Assembly (NCBI RefSeq): GCF_964213995.1
Contig: NW_027590293.1
Coordinates: 1 to 64,000, forward strand
Length of the DNA stretch: 64,000 bases
Reading direction: 5' to 3'
From: Mustelus asterias
Taxonomy: Eukaryota
The notes beneath the pieces were generated by a model. It searched no databases and was not told the DNA's origin. It worked only from the letters and a program-made list of their open reading frames with translations. Within the stretch, counting starts at the first letter, position 1; each line of letters opens with the position of its first letter. Positions 14,909 through 60,619 of the stretch are shown here, one piece after another. The translations under genes were made by a program, and so were the position numbers.

Positions 14909-15336
14909 TCAATAACTGGGGAATCTGCCTCCAGAAGACTTGTGAACTCGCTGGTGTCTCATTAGGTTTTGTGACTGAGTGAATCTGTTCCCACACATGG
15001 AGCAGGTGAACGGCCTTTCCCCAGTGTGAGCACGCTTGTGTTTCAGCAGGTGAGATGAACTGCTGAATCCCTTCATACACACAGAGCAGGTGAATGGCCG
15101 CTCCCCAGTGTGAAGTCGCTGATGAGTGCGAAGGTTGAACATTCGACTAAAACTCTTCCCACACACGGTGCAGATGAACAGACTCTTCCCAGTGTGACTG
15201 CGCTGATGTGCTTCCAGCTGGGATGGAGAACTGAATTCCTTCCCACAGTCCTCACATTCCCATGGGTTCTCTATGGTGTAGATGTCCTCGTGTCTCTCCA
15301 GGTTGGATGATTTAATGTGTGTATATTTCAAATATC
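14909..15336 (-). pseudogene. ZNF-3, 4-finger C2H2 ORF lacking its family start codon (probable pseudogene)
   Basis: Four intact fingers; family accATGgagaaacc start reads accATAgagaacc; leader deleted right after acceptor ttttacag|gatatt at 15336. Confidence 0.55.
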
Positions 15337-16049
15337 CTGTAAAAGGAGTTTAGAAACATCATCACTGTCAGTACGGGATTGAAATTCAGAACAGACATTT
15401 CTACTTTCTGTGGAACATAGTTTCCTCACTTGTTCCTGTAAAGCAGTAAATCCTCATCCTGAACACTTTCCCACCTCCCTGTCCTGCAACCAACTCCCAC
15501 ATTGAACAACCATCTCATATTTCAATGATTGTCCCGTGTTTGAGTCCAGTGTGCCAGGCTGCATGGCGCATGGGTGCTGTTTCACCCATAAGATGGATCT
15601 GTGCAGCACCCTCTTCCAACTGTTCTGGCTGCCAACCAGCCCGTGTCCACCCACACAGTTCCAGCAGCACCGCGCACAATACTGCTCACCTGCTCCAACA
15701 GACTCATGAAGGATGTCCTTTCATTTTCTCTGAGAGAGTTGGTCAGCCTGGCAAACCCAGTGTGAAATATCTTCACAAATCTTTTCTCCCACCATCTATT
15801 CTGGCTGGGTTCAGTTCTCTTTTGTACAGAGTGAAAATAAAATCAAACAATTATTTTCTCTCCTGGTCACTGCAGGGAGTTGCAGCTTTTTACTGGGGGT
15901 GTTGGGGCCTCCAGCGGGTGTTTGTGAATCCTCCCCGCCCACCTCCCAGGGTTTCATTCCTTCCCAGATCAGAGTCCTCATTGATTTGAGGCCAAAGTGT
16001 AACCTCTCATTTATTGTCCCCCTCCCCCATCCTCTGATGTGAACCATCC

Positions 16050-16670
16050 TCCAGTGGCTGAGCCAGGATGGGGCCGTTAACCTGGGCCTGTTCCCGGGAG
16101 GGAGGGAGAAGCCCCGCAGCTGCAAACCAGGGAGCTGACAATGATTCTGAAGGGTTTGCGGATCCACAAAGTGTTTCCAAATCCTCCCAGCCACCGCCTA
16201 ACGCTGACTCCGCTTCTCCGGGACAAACAAGCGCCAAGGACAGCAATGACACTGCGCATGCTCCCGCATCACAATGCCCGGGTCTGATTGACGGCAGCTC
16301 CGGACCAATAGGAAGAGGGGGCGAGGCTGGAGGACCGAGCGGGAACGGCTGGTCCTCCAACCAATCGGAGTGAATGAGGGGCGGGAACTGAAACATGCGC
16401 AGTGCGGGTAATGGCGACGGACGGATGGTTTTAATTTGGAAGCGAGATCAATACGAGGTAGAGGGCGGCGCGCGGGGAATGATAAATGTGGCGGGTGGGT
16501 GGAGAGACTTTGTAAACATGTTGTTCAAACCCAAACCCCGGAAATGAACTTCCCGGTCCCCCCCTTTGTACCAAATGGAGCGGCAGGTTGTAGTGTTAGA
16601 CCCGGGCTGACTGCCGCCATTGAGGCTGCATGTGGGAGGCCGGCAGGGATTGTGATCGGAGAGCGAAGCC
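16050..16670. promoter_or_regulatory. CpG-rich promoter P2 (NRF1-like, 2x CCAAT, GC boxes, YY1-like)
   Basis: actgcgcatgctc ~16251, ccaata ~16305, ccaatc ~16361, ggggcggg ~16378, catgcgcagtgcg ~16394, gccgccatt ~16613; paralogous to P5. Confidence 0.75.
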
Positions 16671-16671
16671 C

Positions 16672-17006
16672 TGACGTCACAATGGAATGGGTGAGGGTGT
16701 GACATCACAATGGAATGGGTGAGAGTGTGACGTCACAATGGAATGGGTGGGAGTGTGAGGTCACAATGGAATGGGTGAGGGTGTGACGTCACAATGGAAT
16801 GGGTGAGAGTGTGACGTCACAATGGAATGGGTGAGAGTGTGACGTCACAATGGAATGGGTGAGAGTGTGACGTCACAATGGAATGGGTGAGAGTGTGACA
16901 TCACAATGGAATGGGTGAGAGTGTGACGTCACAATGGAATGGGTGAGGGTGTGATGTCACAATGGAATGGGTGAGGGTGTGATGTCACAATGGAATGGGT
17001 GAGGGT
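16672..17006. repeat. 28-bp minisatellite x12, each unit carrying a CRE (TGACGTCA or variant)
   Basis: Unit tgacgtcacaatggaatgggtgagagtg; 7 perfect CREs, 2 TGACATCA, 2 TGATGTCA, 1 TGAGGTCA. Confidence 0.95.
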
Positions 17007-17054
17007 TCCAGATGAGCTGAGACTGGGCTGGAGTCGGGCGATGTCACTGACATG

Positions 17055-17350
17055 TGGCCCGGTGGCACAGTGGTTAGTGCAGCTGCCTAACAGCGCCAGG
17101 GACCCGGGTTCAATTCCAGCCTCGGGTCGCTGTCTGTGCAGAGTTTCTACATTCTCCCCGTGTCTGTGTGGGTTTCCTCCGGGTGTTCCGGTTTCCTTCC
17201 ACAGTCCAAAGATGTGCCGGTTAGACGGATTGGCCACGATAAATTGCCACTTGGTATCAGGGGGATTAACAGGTAAATATGTGGATAGGGCCTGGATGGG
17301 ATTTTTGTCAGTGCAGGCTCGATGGGCTGAATGGCCTCCTTCTACACTGT
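17055..17350 (+). mobile_element. HE1-like SINE
   Basis: ggtggcacagtggttagtg A-box, gggttcaattcc B-box, V-domain. Confidence 0.85.
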
Positions 17351-17781
17351 ATTTTATTATTCATTATTATTAATTAATTACTATTAATGCTTCTATAAAT
17401 GAAGGTGGTCTTGATGATGATGTGGACATGTGGCTGGAAGCTCACCTTGGGATGAACTATTTCACACTGGTTGTGAACAGGCTGGTTCAGCCTCAACCAG
17501 TTGCCAGGAGGAGAGATAAAGTTGTTGGCAAGGGAGTGGAGTTTGTAGTGGGGACTGAACACAATGGGTTCAGTCTTCCCAGTATTTATATGAAATAAAT
17601 TTCTGTTCTTTCAGTACTGGATGTCAGACAAGTCAGGATGGTGTGTGAGTTGGAGAGGAACTTGGAGCTGATGGTGTTCACAGGGTTTGGAAATTCTGTC
17701 AAAGTTCCTGTTGAGTTGTAGATGTATAAAATCTCTCTCCTCCCCTCCGGTCTCTCCTACTTGTCTCTGTTTCCACTCAGA

Positions 17782-18172
17782 GTGTGGAGATGCCTGCGTT
17801 GGACTGGGGTAAGCACAGTAAGAAGTCTCACAACACCAAGTTAAAATCCAACAGGTTAATTTGGTAACATAACCCACAGGCTTTCGGAGCGCTGCTCCTT
17901 CATCAGGTGAGTGGGAGTTCTGTTCACAAACAGGGCATCTAAAGACACAAACTCAATTTTCAAGATAATGGTTGGAATGCGAGTCTTTACAGGTAATCAA
18001 GTCTTAAAGGTACAGACAATGTGAGTGGAGAGAGGGTTAAGCACAGGTTAAAGAGATGTGTATTGTCTCCAACCAGGACAGTTAGTGAGATTTTGCAAGC
18101 CCAGGCAAGTTGTGGGGGTTACAGATAGTGTGACATGTCCCAAGATCCCGGTTGAGGCCATCCTCATGTGTG
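17782..18172 (-). mobile_element. Penelope-like element 3' end (ORF end + pLTR with hammerhead-like core)
   Basis: Reverse complement encodes ...HEDGLNRDLG and resembles 24040-24399; CTGATGAAGGAGCAGCGCTCCGAAA at ~17882-17906. Confidence 0.8.
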
Positions 18173-18419
18173 ATTGACAGATCCATGCTCACTGCTTCCT
18201 GCCCTGGAGGCAGAGAGCTGAAAATTTCCATGCCAGCTGCCAGACAGATAAATGTCCACATTACTGGAGTAAAAATGTGTGGAATATACAGACCAAATTC
18301 ACTTCATTCCCTTCAGTTGCTGCAAGTCCCCAATTTCCCCCAGAATGAGAAAAGAAATGGAAAGGGGGAAACATTGATTTCCTCCCAGATGTTGTCCAGA
18401 GGAGGGAGTTTCACTCTGA

Positions 18420-18860
18420 AGCTCATTGGCCAACTTCTGCATTGTGACGTCACAATGGAGCCCTGCCTGAATCAGCCAATAGGAGTCACTCTGCTCCGCG
18501 GTGATGTCTCCGGGTTCCAGTGCGCAGGCCCGGGCGCGCGGACCCGGGAGCCCCGCCCCCACCCATTGTTCCCCTCCCCTTACACCTCCTTGAGTCAAGG
18601 TTTCCAGGCAACCGGCTGGCGGCTCCGGCCAGAACAAGAAGCCGCTCGGTGAGCTCCCCCTCCCCCTGGCCCAGGACTTCACATGTGCGAGGGAGAGGGG
18701 AAGCTGCGCATGTGCAGGGGAGAACCCACCCTCTGATCTTCATGCTGAGGTGTTGACCAATGGGAAGAGTTGGAGGACCGGAAGGATTCTGGTCTTCCGG
18801 CCAATCTGAGCACAGGCTTTGTGTGAATGAAGATTGATCTTCAGACTGACTGATACTTCC
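18420..18860. promoter_or_regulatory. CpG-rich, likely bidirectional promoter P3 with 18-bp CRE palindrome
   Basis: cattgtgacgtcacaatg perfect palindrome 18440-18457, CCAAT boxes, tgcgcatgtgc; flanked by inverted copies of one module (18297-18370 vs 18899-18973); putative donor ct|gtgagt at ~18878. Confidence 0.75.
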
Positions 18861-19519
18861 TCCTGTCGCTAATATCTGTGAGTAAAACACTTTCTTTTCT
18901 CCCCCTTACCATTTCTTTTCTCATTCTGGGGGAAATTGGGGACTTGCAGCAACTGAAGGGAAAGGAAGTGAATCCAGGGAGGGTGCAGACTCTGGAAAGG
19001 TTGGCCCAGGTCTCTCTCTCTCTCTTAAACCAGAAAATGATCCATTTCTGCCCACTGTTTGCTGTAAGCCAATCTTCTATCCACGCCAATATGTCATCCC
19101 CACAGCATGAATTTTTATTTGCTGCAATAACCTTTGATGTGGCAACTCATCAAATGTCTTCTGGAAATCTAAGGACAGCACATCCACCGGTTTCCCTTTA
19201 TCCAATTCCCGATGGGGAATTTTAGAAAATTGAACAACACATCAACTATCTCACTCTGTTAAGACTCGAGAATGAAGCCCAGCAGGACCCGAGGACTCAT
19301 CAGCCCACAGCTCCAACAGTTTGCTGAGGACCACTTCCCTGGGAATTGTGCTTTTTCAGAGTTCATCCCACACTTCTGTTTTCTGATTTCCAGTTGTTTC
19401 TGAGTTTTAACTGTATCCTCTCTTGTGAACACCGAGGCAAAATACTTGTTCAATTCATCTCCCAGCTCCTTATTTTTCATTCTCAATTCCTGGACTCACT
19501 TTCTATTAGACAGTTAAGA

Positions 19520-21290
19520 AATGAGGTGGAGCAAGTGACTGAAGTGTCAGTCAGGGAGCACTATTGGGAGCAACAATAGTTTCAAAATAGTTCTGGAAAA
19601 AGATAGGACAGGTCCACAGGTCAAGGCCCTAAACTGGAGCAGGGCCACTTTTGTGGGCATTAGGCAGGATCTCGCAGATGTCGATTAGGTGAGTTTGTTT
19701 GAAGGGAAAGGAATGACTGGCAAATGGGAGGTTTTAAAAGTGTGATAAAGAGTCCAGGGGCAGTATATTCCTGTCAGGATGAAGGGAAAGAATGGTAAAT
19801 TTAGGGATCCCTAGCTGACAAGGGACATTGAGGCTCTGGTCAGGTAAAAGAAGGAAGCATACATTGGGTTTAGACAATCGGGGACAAGTGAATCACTCGA
19901 TGACTCTTAAAAGTGTAAGAGAACACTTAAGAGGGTATGATATGGATCTGGCAGGTAAAGTTAAAGGAAATTTAACTTTAACACAGTCCAAAGATGTGCG
20001 GGTTAGGTTGATTGGCCATGATAAAATTGCCCCTTAGTGTCCTGAGATGAGTCGGTTAGAGGGATTAGCGGGTAAATATGTCGGGATATGGGGGTAGGGC
20101 CTGGGTGGGATTGTGGTCGGTGCAGATTCAATGGGCCGAATGGCCTCTTTCTGCACTGTAGGGATTCTATGAAAATACCAAGAGGTTCTATCGCGATACT
20201 AACAGTAAAATTGTGGCGAGAGAGAGAGAATAGGTCCCCTTAAAAATCAGCATGGCCATCTGAGGATGGAGTCACAGGAGATGGGTGCGATTTTTAATGA
20301 ATATTTCTCCTTGGTGTTTCCTGAGGAGAACATGATGGATGCTGAAGAAATAAGAGAAAGAAGCTGTGATGTCTTGGACCACATGCATATTACTAGGGAG
20401 GAGGTATCTGCAGCCTTAAAGTGCATTAAGGTGGATAAATCCCCTGGGTCTGATCAAGTATATCTTCAGATCTTGTGGGAGGCTCAGGAAGGAATTACAG
20501 AGCCCCTGGCAGAGATATTTGTTTCATCTCTTTCTACTGGTGAAGTTCTGGAAGAATAGAACACGCTAATGTTGTTCTGTTGTTTAAGAAGCGTAGCAAA
20601 GAGAAGCCTGGGAATTATAGGCCGGTAGTCTGACATCAGTGGTGGGTAAGTTACTGGAGGGGATTGTGAAGGACAGAATCTACCAACATTTGGATTCTGA
20701 CGGTGTGATTAGGGATAGTCAGCACCGCTTTGTGCACGGGAAGTCATGTCTGACAAATCTTTGATTGTTTTCCGAAGAGGTAATCCAGAGGATGGATGAG
20801 CAGGGCCACTTTTGTGGGCATTAGGCAGGATCGAGCAGATGTTGATTAGGTGAGTTTGTTTGAAGGGAAAGGAATGACTGGCAAATGGGAGGTTTTAAAA
20901 GTGTGATATCAAGAATCCAGGGCAGTATATTCCTGTTAAGATGCAGGGAAAGAATGGTAAATTTAGGGATCTCTGGCAGACAAGGGACATTGAGGCTCTG
21001 GTCGGGTAAAAGAAGGAAGCATACATTGGGTTTAAAGATTAAAGAAAATTCCAAGAGGTTCTATAGCTATATTAAGAGTAAAAGGGTGGCTAGAGAGAGA
21101 ATAGATCCCCTTAAAAATCAGTATGGCCATCTGTGTGTGGAGCCACAGGAGATGGGTGAGATTTTTAATGAATACTTCTCCTCTGTGTTTACTGCGGAGA
21201 GCACCATGGGTGCGAAAGAAATAAGGGAAACAAGTGATGATGTCTTGGGCACACGCATGTTACTTGGGAGGAGGTATCTGCAGCCTTATA
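19520..21290 (+). mobile_element. Degraded CR1-type LINE ORF2 middle with internal tandem duplication and nested HE1 (19982-20171)
   Basis: Fragments KENSKRFYSYIKSKRVARERIDPL, FNEYFSSVFT, LKCIKVDKSPG; 19637-19873 repeated at 20798-21033. Confidence 0.8.
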
Positions 21291-21476
21291 AAAGCAAATT
21301 ACTGCGGATGCTGGAATCTGAAACCAAGAGAGAAAATGCTGGAAAATCTCTGCAGGTCTGGCAGCATCTGTAAGGAGAGAAAAGAGCTGATGTTTCTTGT
21401 CCAGATGACCCTTTGTCAAAGCTCTGAAACATCAGTTCTTTTCTCTCCATACAGATGCTGCCAGACCTGCTGAGAA
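21290..21476. repeat. Palindromic repeat family P
   Basis: gcaggtctggcagcatctgta...gatgtttc and gaaacatcag...tacagatgctgccagacctgc are inverted arms. Confidence 0.75.
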
Positions 21477-21961
21477 TGGGGAGAGAGTGTGTGGAATGGA
21501 GATTTACAGCTTCTGGGGAATGAGAGAGGAAAGAATGTTCCATAGAAATTGTCTGTTCTGAATTTCTATCCTGTACTGACACTGATGACTTTTGGAAACT
21601 CATTTTACAGGATATTGAAAGAGGAATCACAGGTTGAAATCTCAAACGTCACGTCTCGATCTGACAGAGTCTTATTCCTTGGGAGCTGAATATCATCGGA
21701 CTTTGAATCCAGAAGGAGAAATGATTGTCCGGTCTGTTGATTTGAAAAGATTTCAAACATCAGTGTGACTGGAAAAGCACCAACACACTGTCACACTCGA
21801 GTGAGAGTGTTCCAATGCACTGACTAAAGAGCTTTAACCAGTTACACAGCCTGAATAAATATCACACCATTCACAGCGGGGAGAGACTGTAATCTTGTTC
21901 TGTGTGTGGACAAAGTTTCAACTAATTGTCCACCCAAGAGAGTGGCAAGGACACCTGCACC

Positions 21962-22552
21962 ATGGAGAAACCGTGGAAATGTGCGGACTGTGGGAAGAGA
22001 TACGGATACCCATCTGAGCTCGAAGCGCATTGGCGCAGCCACACTGGGGAGAGGCCGTTCACCTGCTCTCAGTGTGGGGAGGGATTCAGTGATTCATCCG
22101 GCCAGCAAAGACACCAGCGAGTTCACACTGGGGAGAGACCGTTCACCTGCTCTCAGTGTGGGCAGGGATTCACTCAGTCATCCAACCTGCGGACTCACCA
22201 GCGAGTTCACACTGGGGAGAGACCATTCACTTGTTCTCAGTGTGGGAAGGGATTCAGTAATTCATCAGGCCTGCGAAGACACCAGCGAGTTCACACTGGG
22301 GAGAGACCATTTACCTGCTCTCAGTGTGGGAATGGATTCACTCAGTTATCCAGTCTGCGGACACACGAGCGAGTTCACACTGGGGAGAAACCATTTATGT
22401 GCTCTCAGTGTGGGAAGGGATTCACTGACCTCTCAAACCTCTGCACACACCAGCGAGTTCACACTGGGGAGAGGCCATTCACCTGCTCTGTGTGTGGGAA
22501 GAGATTCAGAGTTTCATCCCACCTGCTGAGACACCAACAAGTTCATGAGTGA
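21962..22552 (+). CDS. Tandem C2H2 zinc-finger protein ZNF-4, 7 fingers
   Basis: accATGg Kozak start MEKPWKC; intact ORF to TGA; acceptor ttttacag|gatatt at 21610. Confidence 0.88.
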
Positions 22553-23530
22553 TTCCAGGGGTTGGATTCTGCTGTTATTGTTTCTGCTCTCAATTACATC
22601 CAGGATTGCATTTTGTTCATTCTCACAGTTGGTCAATGGGGAGGGTCGGAGGGTTTCTTTCTGTTGGACTGGTCGGTCTCACAACTTTGCCTCCAGTGGG
22701 CTGATGCTCCTTGAGTCTTGTTGCGAATACCTGGTTTCAAATTTCACATGGATCACAGAGCGACAGAGTGTGAGGAAGTTCAGAGATATTTAGTCAGCAT
22801 TTCTGTTTGAAACCCCCCCCAAACGCCCATCCAATTTCCTTTGTAATTGTTTATGTCTCCACTTCCTCCACCCTCGTAGGCAGTGAGTTCCAGGTCATTA
22901 CCATTCGCTGCATCAAAATATTCTTCCTCACATCACCCCCCCCTCCCCTCAACTGCATCTCTGATCCAAAACCTTAAATCTGTCTCCCCCTCATCCTTGT
23001 CCCATCAGCTAATGGGAACAGCTTTTCTTTGTCCACCTTATCTAAACCTGTCAGAATCTTGTCACCTCCATCAAATCTCCCCTCAACCTCCTTTGCTCCA
23101 AGGGGAACAACCCCAGCCTGACATTGACAATAAAGAACAAACTAACAGAATATGTTAATACCTGAAATCAAATGGGAATGTTTAATTTCTGTTTTAAAGA
23201 TATTGTGAATATATTGTCCTGGACAATAAAGAAATTGGAATAACTCACCTTGGGTGTGGTTGAATGGAATATATCAATCTGGTATCCACCTACATTCTCC
23301 CTCTCTAACAGCATTGTGGGTGTACTGACACCTGAGGCATTGTAGCAGTTCAAGAAGGCAGAGTTGGGTTGACCATGGCCGAGGAAGCTACAGACAGCCA
23401 CATATTCTGTTATAATCGAAGGACTGCCGATTGAATGTGAGGCATTATGGGACTGGACTATCTTGACCATATTCCTGTAACTTCTCAGTTTCTGCAATCA
23501 TGAACCATTAAAGCTGCTTAGCAGGGTCCT

Positions 23531-24399
23531 TGATGAAGACGAACATCTCGCCAAGGCCATCCCCACACCCCCACTTCTTGCCTTCAAACAACCGCACAAC
23601 CTCAAACAGACCATTGTCCGCAGCAAACTACCCAGCCTTCAGGAGAACAGTGACCAAGACACCACACAACCCTGCCACAGCAACCTCTGCAAGACGTGCC
23701 GGATCATCGACACAGATGCCATCATCTCACGTGAGAACACCATCCACCAGGTACACGGTACATACTCTTGCAACTCGGCCAACATTGTCTACCTGATACG
23801 CTGCAAGAAAGGATGTCCCGAGGCATGGTACATTGGGGAAACTATGCAGACGCTGCGACAACGGATGAATGAACACCGCTCGACAATCACCAGGCAAGAC
23901 TGTTCTCTTCCTGTTGGGGAACACTTCAGCGGTCACGGGCATTCGGCCTCTGATATTCGGGTAAGCGTTCTCCAAGGCGGCCTTCGCGATACACGACAGC
24001 GCAGAGTCGCTGAGCAGAAACTGATAGCCAAGTTCCGCACACACAAGGACGGCCTCAACCGGGATATTGGGTTCATGTCACACTATCTGTAACCCCCACA
24101 GTTGCGTGGACCTGCAGAGTTTCACTGGCTGTCTTGTCTGGAGACAATACACATCTTTTTAGCCTGTCTTGATGCTCTCTCCACTCCCATTGTTTTGTTT
24201 CTTAAAGACTGGATTGGTTGTAAGTATTTGCATTCCAACCATTATTCATGTAAATTGAGTCTGTGTCTTTATAAGTTCTGTTTGTGAACAGAATTCCCAC
24301 TCACCTGAAGAAGGGGCTTAGAGCCTCGAAAGCTTGTGTGGCTTTTGCTACCAAATAAACCTGTTGGACTTTAACCTGGTGTTGTTAAACTTCTTACTG
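23531..24399 (+). mobile_element. 5'-truncated Penelope-like retroelement with GIY-YIG endonuclease ORF (23532-24092) and pLTR
   Basis: Open frame ...PCHSNLCKTC...VYLIRCKKGCPEAWYIGETMQTLRQRMNEHR...GLNRDIG; 12-bp TSD tagcagggtcct at 23519-23530 and 24400-24411. Confidence 0.9.
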
Positions 24400-24829
24400 T
24401 AGCAGGGTCCTGACAGAGGACCTGGTGAGAATATTTACTCAGAATGAGTTAGAATTAAACTTATTCCAGGACCAGCTGGTGTTCAGCGGCTGAGATTCCT
24501 GAATCTGTAAAAAAGGGGTCCGACCAATCAACAAACAGTGGTAGGTAGTTGGTTAAGAAGTTAAAAAGCATTCTGAGGCATTGCTTAACCTATCGTCAAT
24601 TTGTGATCAGAACTGTGAGGGACTTGTGACCCGATAGTCGGTGAAGTGATGGTATTCTCCAAGTAGCACTGGTCTGAAAAGCAGATCTCTGAGAGTAGAT
24701 TTTAACAGTTATAATCCTATCCACGCATGGCCAGTGAAAAACCAGAGCTCGAGTGGGGACTGGACAAGTCTCTTACCTGCCATTTGGAAACTAAGAACAA
24801 GAAGCTTATAGATAAAATGATTAGAGAAT

Positions 24830-25000
24830 AGAAACAACGTTTCAATTCTGGATGACACTTTGTAAGAAGCTCTTATGAAGGATCATCCAGACTCAAAACA
24901 TTGGCTCTATTCTGTCTCCAAAGATGCTGTCAGACCTGTTGAGATCTTCCAGCATTTTCTGTTTTCGTTTCAGATTCCAGCATCCGCAGTATTTTACTTT
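24830..25000. repeat. Palindromic repeat family P (copy of 60620-60795)
   Basis: aacgtttcaattctggatgacactt...atgaaggatcatccagactcaaaacattgg...agatgctgtcagacc. Confidence 0.7.
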
Positions 25001-27824: not shown

Positions 27825-28583
27825 TCACCTGTGAACTCGCTGGTGTCTCTGTAGGTGGGATAACTGAGTGAATGCATTCCCACACACGCAGCAGGTGAAT
27901 GGCCTCTCCCCGGTGTGAACTCGCTGGTGTACCCGCAGTGTGAACGATGTTCTAAATCTCTTTGTGCAGTGAGAGCAGCTGAACGGTCTCTCCTCAGTGT
28001 GACTGCACTGGTGGGACTTCAGATCTCCAGCGAGTTTGAAGCTGTTCCCACAGTTGGAGCATTTAAAGGGTCTCTCATTGCTGTGAGTGACTTTGTGTGC
28101 GCACAGACTGGATAAATGAGTGAATTCCTTCTCACACACAGAGCAGGTAAATGGTCTCTCCCCAGTGTGAATTCGTTGGTGTATCCGCAGTTTGGATGAC
28201 ATTTTAAACCTCTTTGTGCAGTGAAAGCAGCTGAACGGTCTCTCCTCAGTGTGAATGCGCTGGTGGGATACCAGTTCACCAGAGCTTTTGAATCTGCTCC
28301 CACAGTCAGAGCATTTAAAGGGTCTCTCCTGGGTGTGAGTGACTTTGTGTGCACATAGGCTGGATAAATGAGCGAATCCCTCCCCACAGTCAGAGCACCT
28401 GAATGGCCTCTCCCCTGTGTGAACTCGTTGGTGTCTCTGCAGATTAGGTAAGTGAGTGAATCGCTTCCCACACACAAAGCAGGTGAATGGCCTCTCCCCA
28501 GTGTGACTGCGTTGATGAATTTCCAGCTGAGATGGGGATATGAATTCCTTCCCACAGTCTCCACATTTCCACGGTTTCTCCAT
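27825..28583 (-). CDS. Tandem C2H2 zinc-finger protein ZNF-5, 9 fingers
   Basis: accATGg start MEKPWKC, intact ORF; acceptor attacag at ~28924; upstream small-exon module at 29147-29190. Confidence 0.88.
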
Positions 28584-29830: not shown

Positions 29831-29879
29831 TTCTTCCAAGTCCCGCAGTTTGATTTGAAACAGAACAGCTTCTGTTTGT

Positions 29880-49500: not shown

Positions 49501-49526
49501 TAATGACACAATGCCATAAACTAATG

Positions 49527-49740
49527 ACAGTAAGAAGTCTCACAACACCAGGTTAAAGTCCAACAGGTTTATTTGGTAGCAAATACCATAAGCTTTCGGA
49601 GCACTGCTCCTTCGTCAGATGGAGTGGATATCTGTTCTCCAACAGTGCACAGACACAGAAATCAAGTTACAGAATACTAATTAGAATGCGAATCTCTAAA
49701 GCCAGCCAGGTCTTAAAGGTACAGATAATGTGGGTGGAGG
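49527..49740 (-). mobile_element. Penelope pLTR fragment with hammerhead-like core
   Basis: Similar to 17815-18030; reverse complement CTGACGAAGGAGCAGTGCTCCGAAAGCTT. Confidence 0.8.
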
Positions 49741-49741
49741 G

Positions 49742-50904
49742 TCTTGACAGGTTGATGTGGAAAGGATGTTTCCTCTTGTTTGAGAGTCTAGAGCGAGAGG
49801 TCCTTGTTTAAAAATAAGGGTTCGCCCATTTAAAACGGAGATGAGGTGAAATATTTTCTTTCAGAGGGTCATGAACCTCTGGAACACTCTTCTGAAAAGG
49901 CGGTGGAAGCAGAATCTTTGAATATTTTTAAGGCAGATGTAGATAGATTCTTGGCAAGCAAGTGGGTGATAGATTATTGGGGGGTTGGCAGGATACAGAT
50001 TTAAGGTTACTATCAGATCAGCCCTGATCTGATTAAATGGTGGAGCAGACTCAAGGGGCCAAATAGCCGAATCCTGCTCCTTGTTCCTGTGAGACTAATG
50101 ACTAATAAACATAAACTAATGACACAGTACTGAAGGCTTGAAACTTCACAGCTGGTTTCTTCACACAATATGGCCTCTAACTCAATATAACTGTTATTGT
50201 CAATGGCTGAGGGGTTAACAGTTCCAGACCTCAGCTCATCCAGAGTTGATGGGATCCACAGGACTCTGTAATTAAAGTATAAAAGTGTAGCTTTACACCG
50301 GCCTAGGGTCATGTGATATATTTCACTTCTCAAATAAGGATGCAGCTACAGACAAAGCTGGTTACATGATACTAACGTATTACAATTAAGCAGAATATCA
50401 CAGCAGATTAATTGATTAATACACTTCAATTACTTGATCATTACACATAACTAAGCTACAAACTATTAAATATGACCATTCCTACAGTCGAACAGTCCAG
50501 TCAAGCAGCAGGCTGACACAGTCATACTTTGAATCATATCTTACTGCCAATGTCTCACAGGAACAAGGAGCAGGATTCGGCTATTTGGCCCCTTGAGTCT
50601 GCTCCACCATTTAATCAGATCAGGGCTGATCTGATAATAACTTTAAATCTGCATCCTGCCTACCCCCAATAATCTATCACCCACTTGCTTGCCAAGAATG
50701 TATCTACATCTGCCTTAAAAATATTCAAAGACTCTGCTTCCACTGTCTTTTCAGAAGAGTGTTCCAGAGGTTCACGACCCTCTGAAAGAAAATATTTCAC
50801 CTCATCTCCGTTTTAAATGTGCGAACCCTTATTTTTAAACAGGGACCTCTAGCTCTAGATTCTCACACAAGAGGAAACATCCTCTCCACATCAACCTGTC
50901 AAGA
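49742..50904. repeat. ~355-bp inverted repeat of a CR1 3' end (49742-50095 vs 50552-50904)
   Basis: About 15 mismatches counted by eye; the right copy continues into a longer CR1 to ~51710. Confidence 0.9.
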
Positions 50905-51224
50905 ACCTTCAGGATCTTCTATGTTTCGATCAAATTGATCTTACTCTTCTAAACTCCAGCAGACACAAACCTAGCCTGTCCAAGCTTTACCCATAATCCA
51001 CACATTTCCAGCATTAGTCTGGTCAATCGACTGCTTCCAATGTATTTACATCCTTGCTTAAACAAGATGACCAATACTGTACACCGTACTCCAGATGTGG
51101 TCTCACTGGTGCTCTGGATAACTGAAGCATAACCTCCATATTTATGTAATCAATTCCCCTCACAAATGATAACTTTCCTAATTACTTGCTTTACCTGCTT
51201 ACTAGCTTTTTGTGATTCATGCAA

Positions 51225-51618
51225 AAAACAAAGAACAGCACAGGAACAGGCCCTTCGGCCAACGCTGATCACATTGTCCTAGCGAGACCAACCACTTATA
51301 TCCCTCTATTTCCCATCTGTTCATGTGTCTATCCAGATAAGTCTTAAATGTCGCTAATGTATCTGCCTCAACCACCTCACTTGGCAGTGCATTCCAGGCC
51401 CCCACCACCCTCTGTGTAAAAAGACTTCCCCCAACATCTCCACTGAACCTTTCCCCCTTATCTTGAACTTGTTCCCCTTGTAATTGTCATTTCTTCCCTG
51501 GGAAAAAGCTCCCAACTGTTCACCCTATCCACACCCCTCATAATTTTATAAACGTCTATCAGGTCACACCTCAGCCTCCGTCTTTCCAGGGAGAACAATC
51601 CCAGTTTATTCAATCTCT
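51225..51618 (-). mobile_element. CR1-like LINE 3' end nested in an older CR1
   Basis: VGAWNALPSEVVEADTLATFKTYLDRHM. Confidence 0.8.
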
Positions 51619-51799
51619 AGAACACCCAGATCCCTCTGCATCTCAGAGCTCTACAATCTCTCACCATTTAGATAATCTGCTTCCCTTTTATCCTTCCTGC
51701 CAAAATGTGCTGTCCTACCAGCAGTTCAGACCTGAGTAGAGGGAGCAGCACAGAGGTGGACAGTGCAAGTGAGTCATCCTGGGAGTCCTCAACTTGAAA

Positions 51800-52157
51800 T
51801 TCTTTTTTATTCATTCATGGGAAATGGGCATTGCTGGATGGCCAGCATTTATGGTCCAGTCCTTGTTGCCCTTGAACTGAGTGACTTGCGAGGCCATTTC
51901 AGAGGGAGTCACATGTAGGCCAGACCGGGTAAGGAGAGCAGATTTCCTTCCCTAAAGGGCATTAGTGAACCAGATGGGTTTTTTACGATAATCAACAATG
52001 GTTTTATGGTCATCAGTAAATTCTTAATTCCAGATTTTTTATTGAATTCAAATTCCACCAACTGATGTGGCAGGATTCGAAACCCGGTCCCCAAATCATT
52101 AGCTGAGTTTCTGGATTAATAGTTCAGCAATAATACCACCAGTCATCACCTCCCCTA
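51800..52157 (-). mobile_element. tRNA-derived SINE family B
   Basis: Same core and head as 63420. Confidence 0.7.
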
Positions 52158-52469
52158 GTTCAACATGGAGTGTAGGAGAACAAGTCAGGAGCAGCACTGG
52201 GCACCCTAAAACTGAGATTCCAACCTGGTTACTCTGTAACATGAGACTATAAACATGCTAAACAGCAGAAGCAGCATGTTCCAGGCAGGGCCAAGCGATC
52301 CCACAAACAACGGATCAGATCAAAGCTGCAGTCCCCCCACATCCAGTCGTGAATGGTGGGGGACAATTAAACAAATCACAGAGAGAGAAAGCTCCACAAA
52401 TATCACCATCCTCAATGATTGGGGCAACAGTGGATCAGTGCAAACAACTGTGATTTATCTTTTGTGATC

Positions 52470-52917
52470 GCCTGGTTTGGAGGGTAGGTCATATGAGGAA
52501 AGGTTGAGGGAGCTAGGGCTGTTCTCTCTGGAGCGGAGGAGGCTGAGGGGAGACTTAATAGAGGTGTATAAAATGATGAAGGGGATAGATAGAGTGAACG
52601 TTCAAAGGCTATTTCCTCGGGTGGATGGAGCTATTACAAGGGGGCATAACTATAGGGTTCGTGGTGGGAGATACAGGACGGATATCAGAGGTAGGTTCTT
52701 TACGCAGAGAGTGGTTGGGGTGTGGAATGGACTGCCTGCAGTGATAGTGGAGTCAGACACTTTAGAAACATTTAAGCGGTTATTGGATAGGCACATGGAG
52801 CACACCAGGATGATAGGGAGTGGGATAGCTTGATCTTGGTTTCAGATAAAGCTCGGCACAACATCGTGGGCCGAAGGGCCTGTTCTGTGCTGTACTGTTC
52901 TATGTTCTATGTTCTAT
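52470..52917 (+). mobile_element. Young CR1/HER1-like LINE 3' end
   Basis: ORF 52477-52833 nearly identical to the copy in ZNF-9; (gttctat)n tail. Confidence 0.9.
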
Positions 52918-53300
52918 CGCGGATGTGTTACTGATACCTTCCCTGGATTCCGATGCCAGGAAAGATGCTCTGGAAAGTATGGGGAGCTGGGACTTGCCCA
53001 GGAGAGTAACTGAAGGTCTGAGAACTGAAATAATATAGAGTTAGAAAGGAGAAAAGGCCACAGAAATGCAACAAGACATTGATTAATCTGTTCTTATCCT
53101 GGAGAAATGAAGATGCCGGCTTTGTGTCTTCAACAATATTAGTTCAGTTGACATTTATCCAGAGTATTAAACTCCAGCCCAGTTATAGCGATCACTAACA
53201 TCAGCAAAAACAAACTCCAACTGTCAGAATGAACACGGTTCAGTCCTGGATGTGATTAACAGCCGCAATAACAACAGAATCCAACCCCTGCAGACACTTG

Positions 53301-54270
53301 TCAATTTAGAAGATGGGTTGACTGAGTGAATCCCATCTCACACTCAGAGAAGGTGAATGGTCTCTCTCCATTGTGAGTGTGTTGGTGTCTCAGCAGGTGG
53401 GATGAGTGAGAAAATCCCTTCCCGCACTCAGAGCAAGTGAACGGTTTCTCCCCGGTGTGAATGTGCTGGTGTGTTCGCAGGTTGGATGAGCGAGTGAATC
53501 CCTTTCCACAGTCAGAGCAGGTGAACGGTCTCTCCCTGGTCTGAACTTGCTGGTGTCTCAGCAGAACACTTGAGGCCTTAAAGCTCTTCTCACATTCAGA
53601 ACATTTGAAAGGTTTCTTATCTGAGTGAACAAGTTGGTGTGATCTGAGGCTGGTTAAATAAATGAATCCTTTTCCACACAAGGAACAAGTGAATGACCTC
53701 TCCCCAGTGTGAACTCGCTGATGTTTCTGGAGGCTGGATAACAGAGTGAATCCCTTCCCACACACTGTACATCTGAATGGCCTCTCCTTGTTGTGAACTC
53801 GCTAGTGTATCAGCAGATCACTTGTGGTTTTATAACTCTTCTCACATTCGGAATATGTGAACCAGTCGGTGTGTAGCGAGGTGGGATGATCGTGTAAATC
53901 CCTTCCCACACACAGAGCAGGTGAACGGCCTTTCCCCAGTGTGAGTGCGTTTGTGTTCAATGAGATTCTGTGATCGCTTAAATAACTTCCCACAGTAAGA
54001 GCAGCAGAACTGTTTCTCGGTGTGAATAGATTGGTGCGTGACCAGGTCCTCAGGGCTTTTAGAGTTGGGATCACCGTCAGCATGGTTAAAAAGCCTCTCT
54101 TCAATGTGAACTTGCTGGTGGGCCAGCAGGTGGGATGACTGAATGAATCCTTTCCCGCACATGGAGCAGGTGAATGGTCTCTCCCCAGTGTGACTGCGCT
54201 GATGCATTTCCAGCAGCGATGGGTAACTGAATCCCTTCCCACAGTCCCCACATTTCCATGGTTTCTCCAT
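53301..54270 (-). pseudogene. ZNF-10 pseudogene (about 11 fingers)
   Basis: MEKPWKC start; frameshift at ~53850, TAG at 53802-53804, degenerate third finger, truncated last finger. Confidence 0.85.
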
Positions 54271-55734
54271 GGTGCAGGTGTTCTTGTCTGGTCAAGCCTT
54301 GTCCACACACAACATGTGTATTGCTTCGAAGTAAGGCTATTAAGGGTTATGGGACAAGGCAGAAAATTTGATTGTCATATCATATCAGCCGTGATCTCAT
54401 TGAATGGAGGAGCAGACTCAATGAGTCCAATGGCCTAATTCTGATCCTAGTTCTCATGGTCTTATTGTTCTCTGCTGTGAATGGTGTGATGTTTTTTTCA
54501 GGCTGTGTAACTGGTCAAAGCTCTTTCCAGTCAGTTCACTCTCACTCAGGTCTGTGTCTCGGTGCTTTTCCAGTCACACTCATGTTTGAAATTGTTCCCC
54601 ACCGCCAGAACAGACAAACATTTCTCCTTCCACATTTAAAGGTCGATGATATTCAGTTTCTGATGAATTGAGTGACTCTGTCAGATCTTGATGTAATGTT
54701 TGGTTTCAGTTTCCCATCTGCAATTCATCGTCCTCGTGGACCTTGTAAAAGACATTGACAGAGTCAGTATCACTGCCAGCACAGGACAGAAATTCACAAC
54801 AAACAATTCTAGTTTCCACGGAATATTATTTCAAATCTTGTTTCCCCAAATCTTGTGAACCAATCGAACTTCCATCTGAACTAAACCAGAACTTTGTTTC
54901 CAGTGTTTGTGAGACACTCTGTACCCTGAGTTGTGGAAGATATCGAGTGTTCCAGTCGACACTGTCTGCTCCCTCTCCAGGACCACACGAGCACGGACAA
55001 GAAAGTTAAAGTTTATTTTTATTAGTCACAAGTAAGGCTGACAGTAACACTGTAATGAAGTTACTGTGAAACCACAGAAGAGGGGCCCACAGCCAAGTTA
55101 CCCTCTGCTGAACTACAAATTACTGTTTTAACCAGCCCCAAGAACAGGTCCAGGAAAAGATCCTCTGACCTCCCCAGTCTCCTCCACACTGGGCAGCCAA
55201 CGAACAGGAGCGTGGGGCAGAACAGAAGTATAACTAAAAGTGGAGAAGCAGCTCATTCAGGGGCTGCAACCTCTCACACTGAATATGTACATGGCTCACG
55301 GATTTCTCGAGGCTGCAAATTAATTTAAAGAGGAAAAAACAGTGATAAACACAAAGGCAGGTTGTGAAATTGAGCTGAATGAATCTGGTCATTTGTGGAG
55401 CCGGCACAAGGAAGAAGTGACTCCGGAAGCTGCTGGATTGTGATTAAAAACCCAAATGGTTTGTTAATGTCCTTCAATGCAGGAAACCTGTCACCCATCC
55501 AGATCGACACAAAAATTCAGCCTCAATGGGAGGAGAAAGATAGAGATGAAACAGGGAGGGAATGAACGGTAAGGACTTTATACATCCACAACTGGACAAG
55601 AACTGACAGAACCTGCCAAACCACAACCTTCACCAACTCAAAGGATGCAGGAAAATTCACCTCCAAATGTCGTTTTCAATCTCAAGTCTCAAAACAACTT
55701 GTAATCCTGAGGTAACCTGTATCCTCCTGCATTT

Positions 55735-55935
55735 AAGGGGCAATTTAGCATAGCTAATCCACCTAACCTGTACACCTTTGGGGTGTGGGAGGAAACCGGA
55801 GCACCTGAAGGAAACTCATGCAGTCACAGAGAGAACGTGCAAACTCCACACAGACAGTCACCCAAAGCTGGAATCGAACCCGGGTCCCTGGTGCTGTGAG
55901 ACAGCAGTGCTGACCACTGTGCCACCCTGTGCCAC
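55735..55935 (-). mobile_element. HE1-like SINE 5' half
   Basis: Head and V-domain. Confidence 0.75.
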
Positions 55936-56167
55936 TGTACTGCGTTGCTCGGAAATAAGTTTTAGAATTTTGGCCGAGTGATAGCGAAGGCAAAGCAGTA
56001 AACTACCAAGTCAGAATAGTGCGTGATTCTGAAGAGTAAATGCAGGTAGTGGGGTTTCTGTGCACAAACTGCCCTTATCCATGTTGGAGGAGAGGTTTGT
56101 AGTTTTGGAAGGTGCTGTCAAAGGAGGTTTAGCCAATTGCTGGTAATTCTAGTAATGTCCATGTTCC

Positions 56168-56230
56168 AGTTGTGAACTCGCTGGTGCCTCAGCAGAGTGG
56201 ATGAACGACTGAATCCGTTCCCACACACTG
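56168..56230 (-). pseudogene. Isolated single zinc-finger remnant
   Basis: Reverse complement encodes VCGNGFSRSSTLLRHQRVH. Confidence 0.6.
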
Positions 56231-56771
56231 AAAAATTTGAAATTTTTCTAAATGTAAATTTAATGAAAATCCCCGACAGAACTACTTTTTCCTTACTTGA
56301 AACACAGCTTTAAATGGTCCGTTTGTTTCTAGAGTCGGTTCCATGAGCAACGCCTTCAACTAAACAAAATCGAAACACTGCAGCTGCTGGAAATCTGAAA
56401 TGAAAAGAGAAAACGTTGTAAATACTCATCAGGTTAGACAGCATCAATGGAGACAGAAACAGAATTAATGTTTGCAGTCACTGATGCTCCTCGAATAAAA
56501 CACAGACCAATAGCTGCTGTTTAATGGGGCCATGGATCCTACAATCCCATGTGCCCCAGAAACCACTCTATCCATCACACACATTTCCCATTATGACATT
56601 TCTGTGTCAAGAGGATGCGCTGTTTAAAAGTTGTCAAGTTCCATTTTTGCGTGTTCATGTTCATGAAAGATACAGTTCGACTTCCCCCTCATTATGTATC
56701 AATTTCAGATACTTCGGTTGAGAATTTCCATTCCCCCACTTTCTGTTGGATAATGAATGCCTTGAGTACTT

Positions 56772-57097: not shown

Positions 57098-57259
57098 ATA
57101 GGTTACAGTATAATTTGATTCCTAATGTTATTGACTGCACCCGTATCCCTAATTTTCACATCGCAGCAGAAAAGGCTCACCGTTCCTAAATGAGGAATTT
57201 CTATGGCGTGCGCTTTACCCAACATTCCTCGCGGTGGGGAATGTTCCCTATCCACAGCA

Positions 57260-57630
57260 CGGGAGAGAGGTGCACATGCGCAGTCAGGCCGTGTTTGGCG
57301 CATGTGCAGCGTGGATGATGGCAATGGGGAGAGACGTTCCTCTGTCTCATCAGCAACCGGTAAGGATGCGTAGACATGGAGGGAGGATTGGAACCGGCAG
57401 ATGGACGGAGAGGGTTTCTAAATATCTGGTGAAGGTCTCAAACCTCTAATAGTAATCCGCAAGTCCCGTGTTTGCAGCTTCAGGTCTTTTTCTCGAGACG
57501 AGACTCAGGTTAACAGCCGCCATCTTGATTTAGCAGGGAGCAGAGCGCATGCGCTGGTGTCTTGGTGACGCAACAGTGAGTGGGCGGGGCTTCGGCGTTT
57601 TCTGCTCCCAACCGGGTCCTAGTGACCGGA
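57260..57630. promoter_or_regulatory. CpG-rich promoter P6 between divergent ZNF-10 and ZNF-11
   Basis: gcacatgcgcag ~57272, GCCGCCATCTT 57516-57526, GCGCATGCGC 57545-57554, gggcgggg ~57582. Confidence 0.75.
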
Positions 57631-58457
57631 AAGCATTGAAAACTGAGCAACAGGTTTTCAACACCCACTCCTAGGGAAAAATGGAGTATGAAAGTAAGCT
57701 GGCAGGGACATAAAAACTGACTGTAAAAATTTCTATAGATATATAAAGAGAAAATGATTGACAAAATGTTAGAAATGGGAGAATTCATCACGGGGAATAA
57801 AGGGCCGAAGGGCCTGTTCCTGTGCTGTATTGTTCTTTGTTTGAGGGCCGAAGGGCCTGTACTGCGCTGTAATGTTCTATGTTCTGTGTTCTATGGATCT
57901 GTCAATCAGCCTCAACCAGCACCTTCAGGAGAATTGGGAGGGTGAATATTAGATACAGCAGAGTGAGAATGGAGGGAGAGTGTGTGGGATGGAGATTCAC
58001 AGCTTTTGGGGAATGAGAGAGGAAAGAATGTTCCAGAGAAACTAGAATTGTCCTGAATTTCTATCCTGTGCTGACACTGATCACTTTTGTAAATTCTTTT
58101 TACAGGATATTGGAAGGGGAGGATTTGCAGACAAATTTCAAACCAAACGTCACATCAACATCTGACATCCTCACTCAATTCATCGGGACCTGAATATTTC
58201 GACCTTTGTTTCTCAAAGGAGAAATGTTTCTCTGTTCTGTGCTTCAAAAACTTTAATCATTTGTGTGACTTGAAAAGCACCGAGACACATACACAGCTGA
58301 GTGAGAGTGTTCCAGTGCACTGAGTGTGGAAAGAGCTTTAACCAGTTACATTGCCTGAAAATACATCGCAGCATTCACAGTGGGAGAGACTGTACCTGTG
58401 TTCTGTGTGAGATTTAACTGATTGTTTAACCTGGAGAGTCACAAGGACACCTGCACC

Positions 58458-59192
58458 ATGGAGAAACCGTGGAAATGTGGGGACTGTGGGAAGGGATTCA
58501 TTTCCCCATCTCAGCTGGAAGCTCATCGACGCAGTCACACTGGGGAGAGACCATTCACTTGCTGTGTGTGTGGCAAGGGATTCAGTCAGTTATCGAATCT
58601 GCGGACACACCAGCGAGTTCACACTGGGGAGAGGCCGTTCACCTGCTCTCAGTGTGGGGAGGGATTCACTCGGTTATCCAGCCTGCAGACTCATCAGCGA
58701 GTTCACACTGGGGAGAGGCCATTCACCTGCTCTCAGTGTGGGAAGAGATTCACTCAGACATCCCACCTGCAAACGCACCAGCGAGTTCACACTGGGGAGA
58801 GACCGTTCACCTGCTCTGTGTGTAGGAAGGGATTCACTGACTTATCCAGCCTGCGGGGACACCAGCGAATTCACACTGGGGAGAGACCATTCACCTGCTC
58901 TCAGTGTGGGGACGGATTCACTCAGTCATCCGCCCTGCGGAGACACCAGCGAGTTCACACTGGGGAGAAGCTGTTCACTTGCTCTCAGTGTTTAAAGGGA
59001 TTCACTCAATTATCCCACCTGCAGACACACCAGCGAGTTCACACTGGGGAGAGGCCATTCACCTGCTCTCAGTGTGGGAAGGGATTCACTCAGTCATCCA
59101 GCCTGCGGAGACACCAGCGAGTTCACACTGGGGGAGGCCATTCATCTGCTCTCAGTGTGGGAAGAGTTTCAGAACTTCATCCCACCTGCTGA
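58458..59192 (+). CDS. Tandem C2H2 zinc-finger protein ZNF-11, 8 fingers plus a ninth lost by frameshift (paralog of ZNF-4)
   Basis: accATGg MEKPWKC start; last linker reads actgggggaggcca (2 nt short), ninth finger ends at 59215 in another frame. Confidence 0.8.
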
Positions 59193-60619
59193 GACACCAA
59201 CCAATTCACAAATGATTCCAGGGGTTGGATTCTGCTGTCATTGTTTCTGCTCTCAGTTACATCCAGGACTGCATTTTGTTCATTTTCCCAGTTGGTCAAT
59301 GGGGAGGGTCGGAGGGGTTCTTTCTGCTGGACTGGCCGGTCTCACGACTTTGCCTCCAGTGGGCTGAGTCTTGTTGCGAATACCTGGTTTCAAATTTCAC
59401 ACGGATCACAGAGTGACCGGGCGATCGGAAGTTAAGACATGTTGAGTCAGCATTTCTAATTGAAACACCGCCTGAATGCCAATCGAATTTCCTTTGCAAT
59501 AGTTTGTTGTCTCCACTTCCTCCACCCTCGTAGGCAGCGAGTTCCAGAACATTACCATTCGCTGCATCAAAATATTCTCCCTCACATTCCCCCCCCTGCA
59601 TCTCTGACCCAAAACCTTAAATCTGTGTCCCCCTCGTCCTTGTCTCATCAGCTAATGGGAACAGCTTTTTTTTGTCCACCTTATCTAAACCTGTCAGAAT
59701 CTTGTCCACCTCTATCAAATCTCCCTCAACCTCCTTTGTTCCAAGGAGAACCCCAGCCTGACATTGACAATAAGGAACAAACTAATAGAATATGTTAATG
59801 CCTGAAATCAAATGGGAATGTTTAATTTCTGATTTAAAGATATTGTGAATATATTGTCCTGGACAATCAAGGAATTTGAACAACTCACCTTGGGTGTGGT
59901 TGAATGGAATAGACAATCTGGTATCCACCTTCATTCTGGTGATAGTATGGAATGTGTAGCTGGAAATCCCTCTCTAACAGGACTGTGGGTGTACTTACAC
60001 CTCAGGCATTGTAGCAGTTCAAGAAGGCAGTGTTGGGGTTGACAATGGCCGAGGCAGCTACATACAGCCACATATTCTGTTATAATTGAAGGACTGCAGA
60101 TTGAATATGAAGCATTATGGGACTGGACTATCTTGACCACATTCCTGTGGCTGCTCAGTTTCTGCAATCACGGACCATTAAAGCTGCTTAGCAGGGCCCC
60201 GATAGAGGACGTGGTGGGAATATTTACTCAGAATGAGTTAGAATTAAACTTATTCCAAAACACCGGCTGGTGTTCAGCAGCTGATATACCCGAATTTGTA
60301 AAAAGAGGGTCTGACCAATCAACAAACCATGGTAGGGAGTCGGTTAAGAAGTGAAGAAGCGTTCTCAGGCATTGTTTAAATTATTTCATCATAAATTTGT
60401 GATAAGAACTGTGAGGGACTTGTGACCCGATAGTCGGCGAGGTGACGGTATACTCCAAGTAGCACTGGACTGAAAAGCAGACCTCTGAGCGTAGATTATA
60501 ATGGTTATAATCCTACCCAAGCATGGTCAGTGAAAAATCAGAGCTCAAGTGGGGACCGGAGAGGTCTCTTACCTGCCATTTGGAAACTAAGAACAAGAAA
60601 CATATTGATAAAATAATTA

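What the first reader, a model, noticed from the sequence alone, without database searches (positions are those of the whole stretch)
14909..59215. Cluster built from repeated head-to-head pairs of effector-less C2H2 ZNF genes around CpG promoters
Seen: four minus/plus pairs (ZNF-3/4, 5/6, 8/9, 10/11) each flank CpG-rich segments, and ZNF-1 has only an orphan plus-strand 3' UTR where its partner would be. The proteins are finger arrays only, with no KRAB, SCAN or BTB domain visible. Known: tetrapod KRAB-ZNF clusters evolve by birth-and-death, often use bidirectional promoters and target TEs, and KRAB-ZNF expansions are not described for sharks. Inference: this is an independent chondrichthyan ZNF expansion whose duplication unit is a divergent gene pair, possibly a KRAB-free TE-recognition system. 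In most pairs at least one member is disrupted.
Basis: partly seen in the sequence, partly recalled or inferred. Interest (0 to 1): 0.75.

Follow-up and report, generated by a model that had tools for sequence, protein, structure and literature searches.

The report
Shark zinc-finger genes sharing two-way promoters
This is a slice of a very large shark family of genes predicted to make bare DNA-reading zinc-finger proteins; back-to-back genes often share one likely two-way switch, but the family is copied in multi-gene blocks that swap partners, not pair by pair, and a role against jumping genes is untested.

Summary
The eleven C2H2 arrays, four minus/plus pairs, CpG modules and orphan 3' UTR are real. 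No KRAB, SCAN, BTB or ZAD was found, and an in-frame stop separates acceptor from fingers in 95 of 104 arrays. The central inference fails: the pair is not the duplication unit. Four pairs among eleven genes is chance-level (P=0.10). Outside the window and its copies, head-to-head adjacencies are 34 against 29.6 expected (P=0.08). Two nine-gene blocks of the window recur at 92-98% identity, and close paralogs keep their divergent partner no more often than other neighbours (28 of 69 versus 28 of 61). Promoter sharing is supported by sequence: 34 of 45 divergent gaps hold one promoter-like module, 40 of 41 convergent gaps none. Transcription direction is untested. The family has roughly 5,600 arrays here; shark ZNF expansions are already counted in the supplement of PMC10547256. 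Finger frameworks are conserved and contact residues change fast (dN/dS 1.14, CI 0.68-1.61), which fits but does not show transposon targeting. The scan noted this family and its shared promoters on other DNA of this genome.

The parts
374..52471 (.). Nine-gene block (ZNF-1 to ZNF-9) duplicated as a whole, inverted, on G000:C106
   Evidence: collinear matches at 92-98%
10295..56771 (.). Nine-gene block (ZNF-2 to ZNF-10) duplicated on G000:C128; beyond P6 that copy has a different plus-strand partner than ZNF-11
2389..3510 (-). ZNF-1, intact 373-aa ORF, 12 fingers, type A start
5620..5980 (.). P1, promoter-like module (NRF1-like and YY1-like motifs, labels recalled), oriented to ZNF-1
7954..8298 (+). 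Orphan ZNF 3' UTR; the finger array of this former partner of ZNF-1 is gone
   Evidence: (75% to the ZNF-10 3' UTR)
10682..11719 (-). ZNF-2, intact 345-aa ORF, 12 fingers, type A; exon starts at 11828; no promoter module between it and ZNF-3, so it would be served by P2
14909..15340 (-). ZNF-3, truncated type B exon, 4 fingers, usual start codon absent
15890..16680 (.). P2, family A promoter module; 1771 first-look candidates in the genome, the best 40 at 96-100%
16672..17003 (.). 28-bp minisatellite, 11.9 copies, beside P2
18297..19009 (.). P3, family B module with two outward-pointing, inverted copies (82%) of one predicted leader exon
   Evidence: a Scyliorhinus gene model joins the right arm to a ZNF-exon leader
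21962..22552 (+). ZNF-4, intact 196-aa ORF, 7 fingers, type B; exon starts at 21611
27825..28583 (-). ZNF-5, intact 252-aa ORF, 9 fingers plus a relic leader finger
29247..29800 (.). P4, family B module, the only module between ZNF-5 and ZNF-6
31342..32082 (+). ZNF-6, pseudogene (frameshifts, stops)
35800..36330 (-). ZNF-7, pseudogene with an insertion in its exon
39183..39854 (-). ZNF-8, type A; stop after the usual start, downstream Met opens 223 aa with 7 canonical fingers
40448..40930 (.). P5, family A+E module, the only module between ZNF-8 and ZNF-9
43312..45098 (+). ZNF-9, type A, split by a young LINE piece (about 43521-44260; CR1-like label recalled) and frameshifted; its copies on C128 and C106 keep an open frame
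53304..54270 (-). ZNF-10, type B, frameshifted after four fingers
57230..57640 (.). P6, family D module, the only module between ZNF-10 and ZNF-11
58458..59192 (+). ZNF-11, type B, 244 aa, 8 fingers; a late frameshift loses the ninth
61150..61620 (.). P7, family F module pointing to the next plus-strand array beyond the window (G000:C261:66388)

Best explanation
The window is part of a birth-and-death cluster of shark genes predicted to encode bare C2H2 finger arrays, copied in multi-gene blocks and reshuffled so that a few families of likely two-way promoter modules serve whichever finger exons flank them. Shown: arrays, module placement, multi-gene duplicates, partner swapping, absence of a detectable effector domain, purifying selection on the finger framework. 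Inferred: each module drives short non-coding leader exons that splice to a terminal finger exon on one or both sides; old inverted duplications (the twin arms of P3) made some modules two-way; unequal recombination between the many near-identical repeats makes the blocks and swaps. Least certain (about 0.4): the proteins act as sequence-specific occupiers of repeat or transposon DNA, repressing by competition or through a partner that binds the fingers, which would explain the fast contact residues.
For: Blocks of nine genes recur at 92-98%; six places match the P3 arm at 99% or more, more than two haplotypes could give. Homology from a close paralog reaches the divergent neighbour in 28 of 69 traces, the convergent in 28 of 61, tandem in 17 of 34 and 18 of 39; 26 of 103 upstream traces end before the gene's own module. 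Modules: one in 34 of 45 divergent gaps, none in 40 of 41 convergent gaps; without the window and its copies 26 of 34 divergent gaps have one module against 11.7 expected if each gene brought its own. B leader arms point at a same-strand array in 57 of 60 cases and 9 of 12 twin-arm modules have a sense array on both sides. Gene models of other sharks join D/E/F-type modules to finger exons in both orientations (P0023, P0035 one way; P0011, P0033 the other). In-frame stop between acceptor and first finger in 95 of 104 arrays; 61 of 76 intact ORFs end one residue after the last His. dN/dS core 0.04, other 0.62, contact 1.14.
Against: No stranded RNA, start site or splice junction was obtained. 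Head-to-head adjacency is in mild excess in the full sample (45 against 37.5, P=0.011; 38 against 32.2, P=0.03 with the window's copies removed), so pairing is favoured somewhat. The one-module count merges elements under 500 bp apart. The D/E/F-type module has a sense array on its main side in 29 of 29 cases but on the other side in only 13 of 28, so many copies look one-way. The other-shark proteins are computer gene models whose RNA support I did not see. Contact dN/dS is not significantly above 1 (CI 0.68-1.61; 0.78, CI 0.26-1.42), and the low core value is partly built in because Cys/His were required. Half the arrays are broken (77 of 153). Some homology chains probably run through shared repeats.
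Confidence: 0.68

Rival explanations
1. The duplication unit is a divergent gene pair around its shared promoter.
For: Mild excess of head-to-head adjacency; twin-arm B modules show that some pairs arose by an old inverted duplication; one pair (the ZNF-10 family with its C128-type partner) recurs on C71 with little flanking sequence.
Against: 60 of 146 adjacencies are same-strand where a pair unit predicts near strict alternation. Paralogs at 93% or more keep the divergent partner in 16 of 70 comparisons, the convergent neighbour in 24 of 55 (ordered pairs, not independent). The window's own duplicates are nine-gene blocks, and ZNF-10 has another partner in its C128 copy.
Confidence: 0.08
2. 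The modules are mostly one-way promoters; the second gene of a pair is a passenger left by inversion and is silent or only read by leaky antisense transcription.
For: Second side occupied in 13 of 28 D/E/F-type modules, and in only 1 of 8 of the F subtype (subtypes sorted by eye); both members intact in only 9 of 45 pairs.
Against: Twin leader arms in 12 B modules; 7 of 8 D-subtype modules have sense arrays on both sides; 9 of 45 both-intact is about what independent decay at the overall rate gives; gene models of other sharks use both orientations.
Confidence: 0.2
3. The expansion is largely a neutral by-product of a recombination-prone region; only a few genes matter and most proteins do nothing.
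For: Half the arrays are broken; arrays without a module upstream are intact as often as others (10 of 20 against 19 of 35 and 34 of 68); no expression shown.
Against: Non-contact dN/dS of 0.62 (CI 0.47-0.76) and linker 0.13 indicate protein-level constraint; 7 of 15 old dispersed copies at about 72-76% identity keep ORFs of 7-10 fingers.
Confidence: 0.2
4. The proteins are not bare: an unrecognised short acidic N-terminal segment, or a spliced C-terminal tail, is the effector in the functional subset.
For: The leader of the finger exon is a decayed coding segment (about 40 acidic/polar residues plus relic fingers), open in a few copies and in several shark gene models.
Against: Stop between acceptor and fingers in 95 of 104 arrays; leader lengths vary out of frame among 43 B copies; no Pfam effector match; the N-termini upstream of the segment differ between models.
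Confidence: 0.12

Closest known systems
Young mouse KRAB-ZFP clusters (PMC11952569; passages read)
   Same: Expansion by large segmental duplications of multi-gene blocks (3-7 genes there), partial duplications, recombination between repeats.
   Different: No KRAB domain here; blocks of nine genes seen; family about ten times larger by my estimate; shared promoter modules.
Cyprinid FiNZ-ZNFs and metazoan tandem ZNF expansions (PMC10547256; abstract, first ninth of the text, passages and supplement rows seen)
   Same: Lineage-specific, clustered tandem C2H2 genes outside tetrapods with fast contact residues; its supplement counts 475-3586 ZNF ORFs in the eight cartilaginous fish rows seen.
   Different: FiNZ genes carry a conserved N-terminal domain and have knockdown evidence for TE repression; here the N-terminal segment is mostly dead and there is no functional evidence.
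Vertebrate bidirectional CpG-island promoters (PMC3082894; passages read)
   Same: Head-to-head genes on one CpG-rich element with NRF1, NF-Y, YY1 and GABPA-type motifs.
   Different: Here a few module families are present in well over a thousand copies and exchange partners; divergent transcription is inferred, not measured.

Membership tests
KRAB-ZNF (KZFP) | KRAB exon spliced in frame upstream of the finger exon | tested here: not met
   No KRAB in 168 upstream frames, control detected; in-frame stop in 95 of 104 finger exons
KRAB-ZNF (KZFP) | Single terminal exon with a tandem C2H2 array and TGEKP-type linkers | tested here: met
KRAB-ZNF (KZFP) | Clustered birth-and-death by segmental duplication | tested here: met
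KRAB-ZNF (KZFP) | Binding to transposable elements and TRIM28-dependent silencing | not testable with these tools
   No binding or knockdown data
FiNZ-ZNF | Conserved N-terminal FiNZ domain | tested here: inconclusive
   No FiNZ profile was available; but in 95 of 104 arrays no upstream domain can be in frame
FiNZ-ZNF / arms-race ZNFs | Positive selection on DNA-contact residues | tested here: inconclusive
   dN/dS 1.14 (0.68-1.61) over 24 pairs; 0.78 (0.26-1.42) over 11 pairs
SCAN-, BTB- or ZAD-ZNF | SCAN, BTB or zf-AD domain N-terminal to the fingers | tested here: not met
   (no positive control given for these three)
Bidirectional promoter | One CpG-rich element between divergent genes with NRF1/NF-Y/YY1-type motifs | tested here: met
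   motif patterns recalled
Bidirectional promoter | Two start sites on opposite strands within about 1 kb | not testable with these tools
   Only unstranded contigs of guessed RNA runs were available
Retrocopy-driven gene family | Intron loss and poly(A) tail in dispersed copies | tested here: not met
   None of 15 dispersed copies showed a spliced leader; those with an intact 5' part keep the acceptor

The most novel reading that the evidence does not exclude
Sharks run a KRAB-free genome-surveillance system of thousands of bare finger proteins in which a handful of two-way promoter modules act as sockets: recombination plugs new finger exons onto either side, or in series as alternative last exons (as ZNF-3 and ZNF-2 behind P2), so that new DNA specificities are expressed at once and repress repeats without an effector domain.
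Probability: 0.22. Interest if true: 0.78.

Novelty: new variant of a known kind. Interest (0 to 1): 0.42.

Why it matters
Tandem ZNF expansions track transposon load across animals, but the studied vertebrate cases carry an effector domain. A family of thousands of apparently domain-free finger genes would test whether DNA binding alone can drive such an expansion. The shared modules also give a few common targets for measuring or knocking down the whole family. The pair-as-unit idea, which was the most unusual claim, does not hold.

Tried and rejected
RNA: no holder on record as RNA was listed. Contigs of four guessed-RNA runs laid on 15290-21960 cover both flanks of P2, the P3 arms and the ZNF-4 leader, but they are unstranded, come from other organisms, and the listed joints were all repeat-derived; no evidence either way. 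KRAB search of the own genome: no match, but the control rang nowhere, so it is not used. Retrocopies as a route to splice junctions: none among 15 dispersed copies. Rfam: no match in the window at gathering scores. A peptide pattern for the relic N-terminal segment found nothing and was replaced by an acceptor-anchored scan. Readthrough or recoding of the conserved leader stops was considered and rejected because leader lengths shift frame among 43 copies. Allelic duplication as the source of the near-identical blocks was rejected as the main cause. Gap lengths do not separate divergent from tandem gaps (P=0.31). The CpG peak at 23526-24400 is a GIY-YIG-bearing repeat, not a promoter. Literature: seven searches listed no paper describing this shark family's gene structure or promoters; most subscription papers are outside the library, and three supplement files of PMC10547256 were not searched.
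Full report
Observation. The window holds 85 C2H2 fingers in 11 arrays, strand order - - - + - + - - + - +. The four head-to-head pairs, the CpG-rich segments between them and the orphan plus-strand 3' UTR upstream of ZNF-1 are as described. ZNF-1, -2, -4 and -5 are intact; ZNF-8 keeps seven fingers behind a downstream Met; ZNF-11 loses its last finger; ZNF-3 lacks the usual start; ZNF-6, -7, -9 and -10 are broken. Four pairs among seven minus and four plus genes is not unusual by itself (P=0.10).

Context. The window is the start of G000:C261 in a 3.68-Gb genome. The closest named proteins come from sharks, with one skate relative. A 22-base start motif of the family occurs 2641 times, 1321 forward and 1320 reverse. 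In 1,464,000 sampled bases from seven regions there are 153 arrays and 72 motif hits, which scales to roughly 5,600 arrays (a rough figure). Clusters are patchy: 4 of 20 spot samples along C71 held arrays. The supplement of PMC10547256 already counts 475 to 3586 ZNF ORFs in cartilaginous fishes, while its main text does not mention sharks. [quoted passage not shown]

Gene anatomy. Each gene is a terminal exon (acceptor, leader, finger array, 3' UTR) of type A or B. An acceptor could be placed for 104 of 153 arrays; in 95 of these a stop lies in frame between acceptor and first finger, so an upstream exon cannot add a domain. The leader is a decayed coding segment of about 40 residues plus relic fingers; it is open in a few copies and in some gene models of other sharks, but what lies upstream of it differs between models. 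Pfam found no KRAB, SCAN, BTB or ZAD in 168 of 171 upstream frames and did find KRAB in a control. 61 of 76 intact ORFs stop one residue after the last His. The proteins are thus predicted to be bare arrays of 3-18 fingers.

Promoters. A few module families (A, B, C, D/F, E) with NRF1-, CCAAT-, GC-box- and YY1-like motifs recur (motif labels recalled; PMC3082894 lists these factors for bidirectional promoters, passages). They are absent from 40 of 41 convergent gaps; of 45 divergent gaps 34 have one, 7 two and 4 none; of 60 tandem gaps 35 have one, 5 two and 20 none. With the window and its two copies left out, 26 of 34 divergent gaps have one module against 11.7 expected if each gene brought its own (elements under 500 bp apart are merged). 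P3 carries two inverted copies of one predicted leader exon; such arms point at a same-strand array in 57 of 60 cases, and 9 of 12 twin-arm modules have sense arrays on both sides. A Scyliorhinus gene model joins this arm to a finger-exon leader. For D/E/F-type modules the main side faces a sense array in 29 of 29 cases and the other side in 13 of 28, with 7 of 8 in the D subtype and 1 of 8 in the F subtype. Gene models from Pristiophorus and Heterodontus use the main direction and models from Heterodontus and Mustelus the other. Shared two-way modules are therefore likely for a subset; no transcript shows it.

Duplication unit. If pairs were the unit, strands would alternate. Of 146 adjacencies 45 are head-to-head, 41 tail-to-tail and 60 same-strand; shuffling gives 37.5 head-to-head (P=0.011) and the maximum is 67. 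Without the window's copies it is 38 against 32.2 (P=0.03), and without the window too, 34 against 29.6 (P=0.08). Window 374-52471 recurs on C106 and 10295-56771 on C128, nine arrays each, at 92-98%. Paralogs at 93% or more keep the divergent partner in 16 of 70 comparisons, the convergent neighbour in 24 of 55, tandem neighbours in 16 of 26 and 10 of 35. On a spanning tree of 53 of 111 close pairs, traced both ways, homology reaches the divergent neighbour in 28 of 69, the convergent in 28 of 61, tandem in 17 of 34 and 18 of 39; 26 of 103 upstream traces end before the gene's own module (a few chains probably run through shared repeats). Pairs ride inside larger blocks and change partners. 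This is the mode described for young mouse KZFP clusters (PMC11952569, passages).

Selection and decay. 76 of 153 arrays are intact; of 45 pairs 9 have both members intact, 25 one and 11 none, about what independent decay gives, so damage in pairs is not special. Over 24 disjoint paralog pairs dN/dS is 0.04 at core, 0.62 at other and 1.14 (0.68-1.61) at contact positions, and 13 of 24 pairs differ in finger number; a stricter set of 11 pairs gives 0.78 (0.26-1.42). This is the pattern of diversifying DNA-binding families, without proof of positive selection. Seven of 15 old dispersed copies keep long ORFs. Arrays with no module upstream are intact in 10 of 20 cases; ZNF-2 is one, which suggests alternative last exons but is untested.

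Verdict. A real, very large, little-described shark family of predicted finger-only genes with shared promoter modules, expanded by multi-gene segmental duplication. The pair-as-unit claim is refuted; bidirectional transcription is likely for some module types; transposon recognition is plausible by analogy only. Earlier notes of this scan describe the same family and promoters on other DNA of this genome; they are leads, not support.

Noticed in passing
window 10682-16680: Intact ZNF-2 has no promoter module of its own and lies behind truncated ZNF-3; the ZNF-3/ZNF-2 tandem recurs at four places in the sample. Possible alternative last exons from P2.
   Followed up: partly
window 21611-21962 and paralogs: The type B leader keeps a stop codon inside a relic finger in 21 of the 22 copies that matched a strict pattern, within a short palindrome, also in old dispersed copies.
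   Followed up: partly
G000:C261 about 94300-94505 (L004) and G000:C128 about 27000-27173: A copy of promoter module A abuts a short open frame that I recall as Tx1 ORF1-like; earlier notes report Tx1 elements targeting these leader exons. Label not checked.
   Followed up: no
window 23526-24400: Young repeat with a GIY-YIG domain (Penelope-like label recalled), copies at 89-98% in the sample, absent from the C106 and C128 copies of the block.
   Followed up: partly
window 16672-17003, 29880-30085, 33410-34172: Minisatellites of 28, 18 and 26 bp; the 28-bp unit beside P2 carries a CRE-like motif (label recalled).
   Followed up: no
L065 (G000:C106 about 948000-949300): A type A gene whose relic N-terminal segment is still open up to the fingers; a Mustelus gene model of the same subfamily joins it to a short upstream exon.
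   Followed up: partly
L170, L171, L172: Three nearly identical decayed family members on separate 1-1.4 Mb contigs C31, C34, C65.
   Followed up: no
G000:C261 197558-203559: About 6 kb tandem array with a 36-bp period inside the cluster.
   Followed up: no
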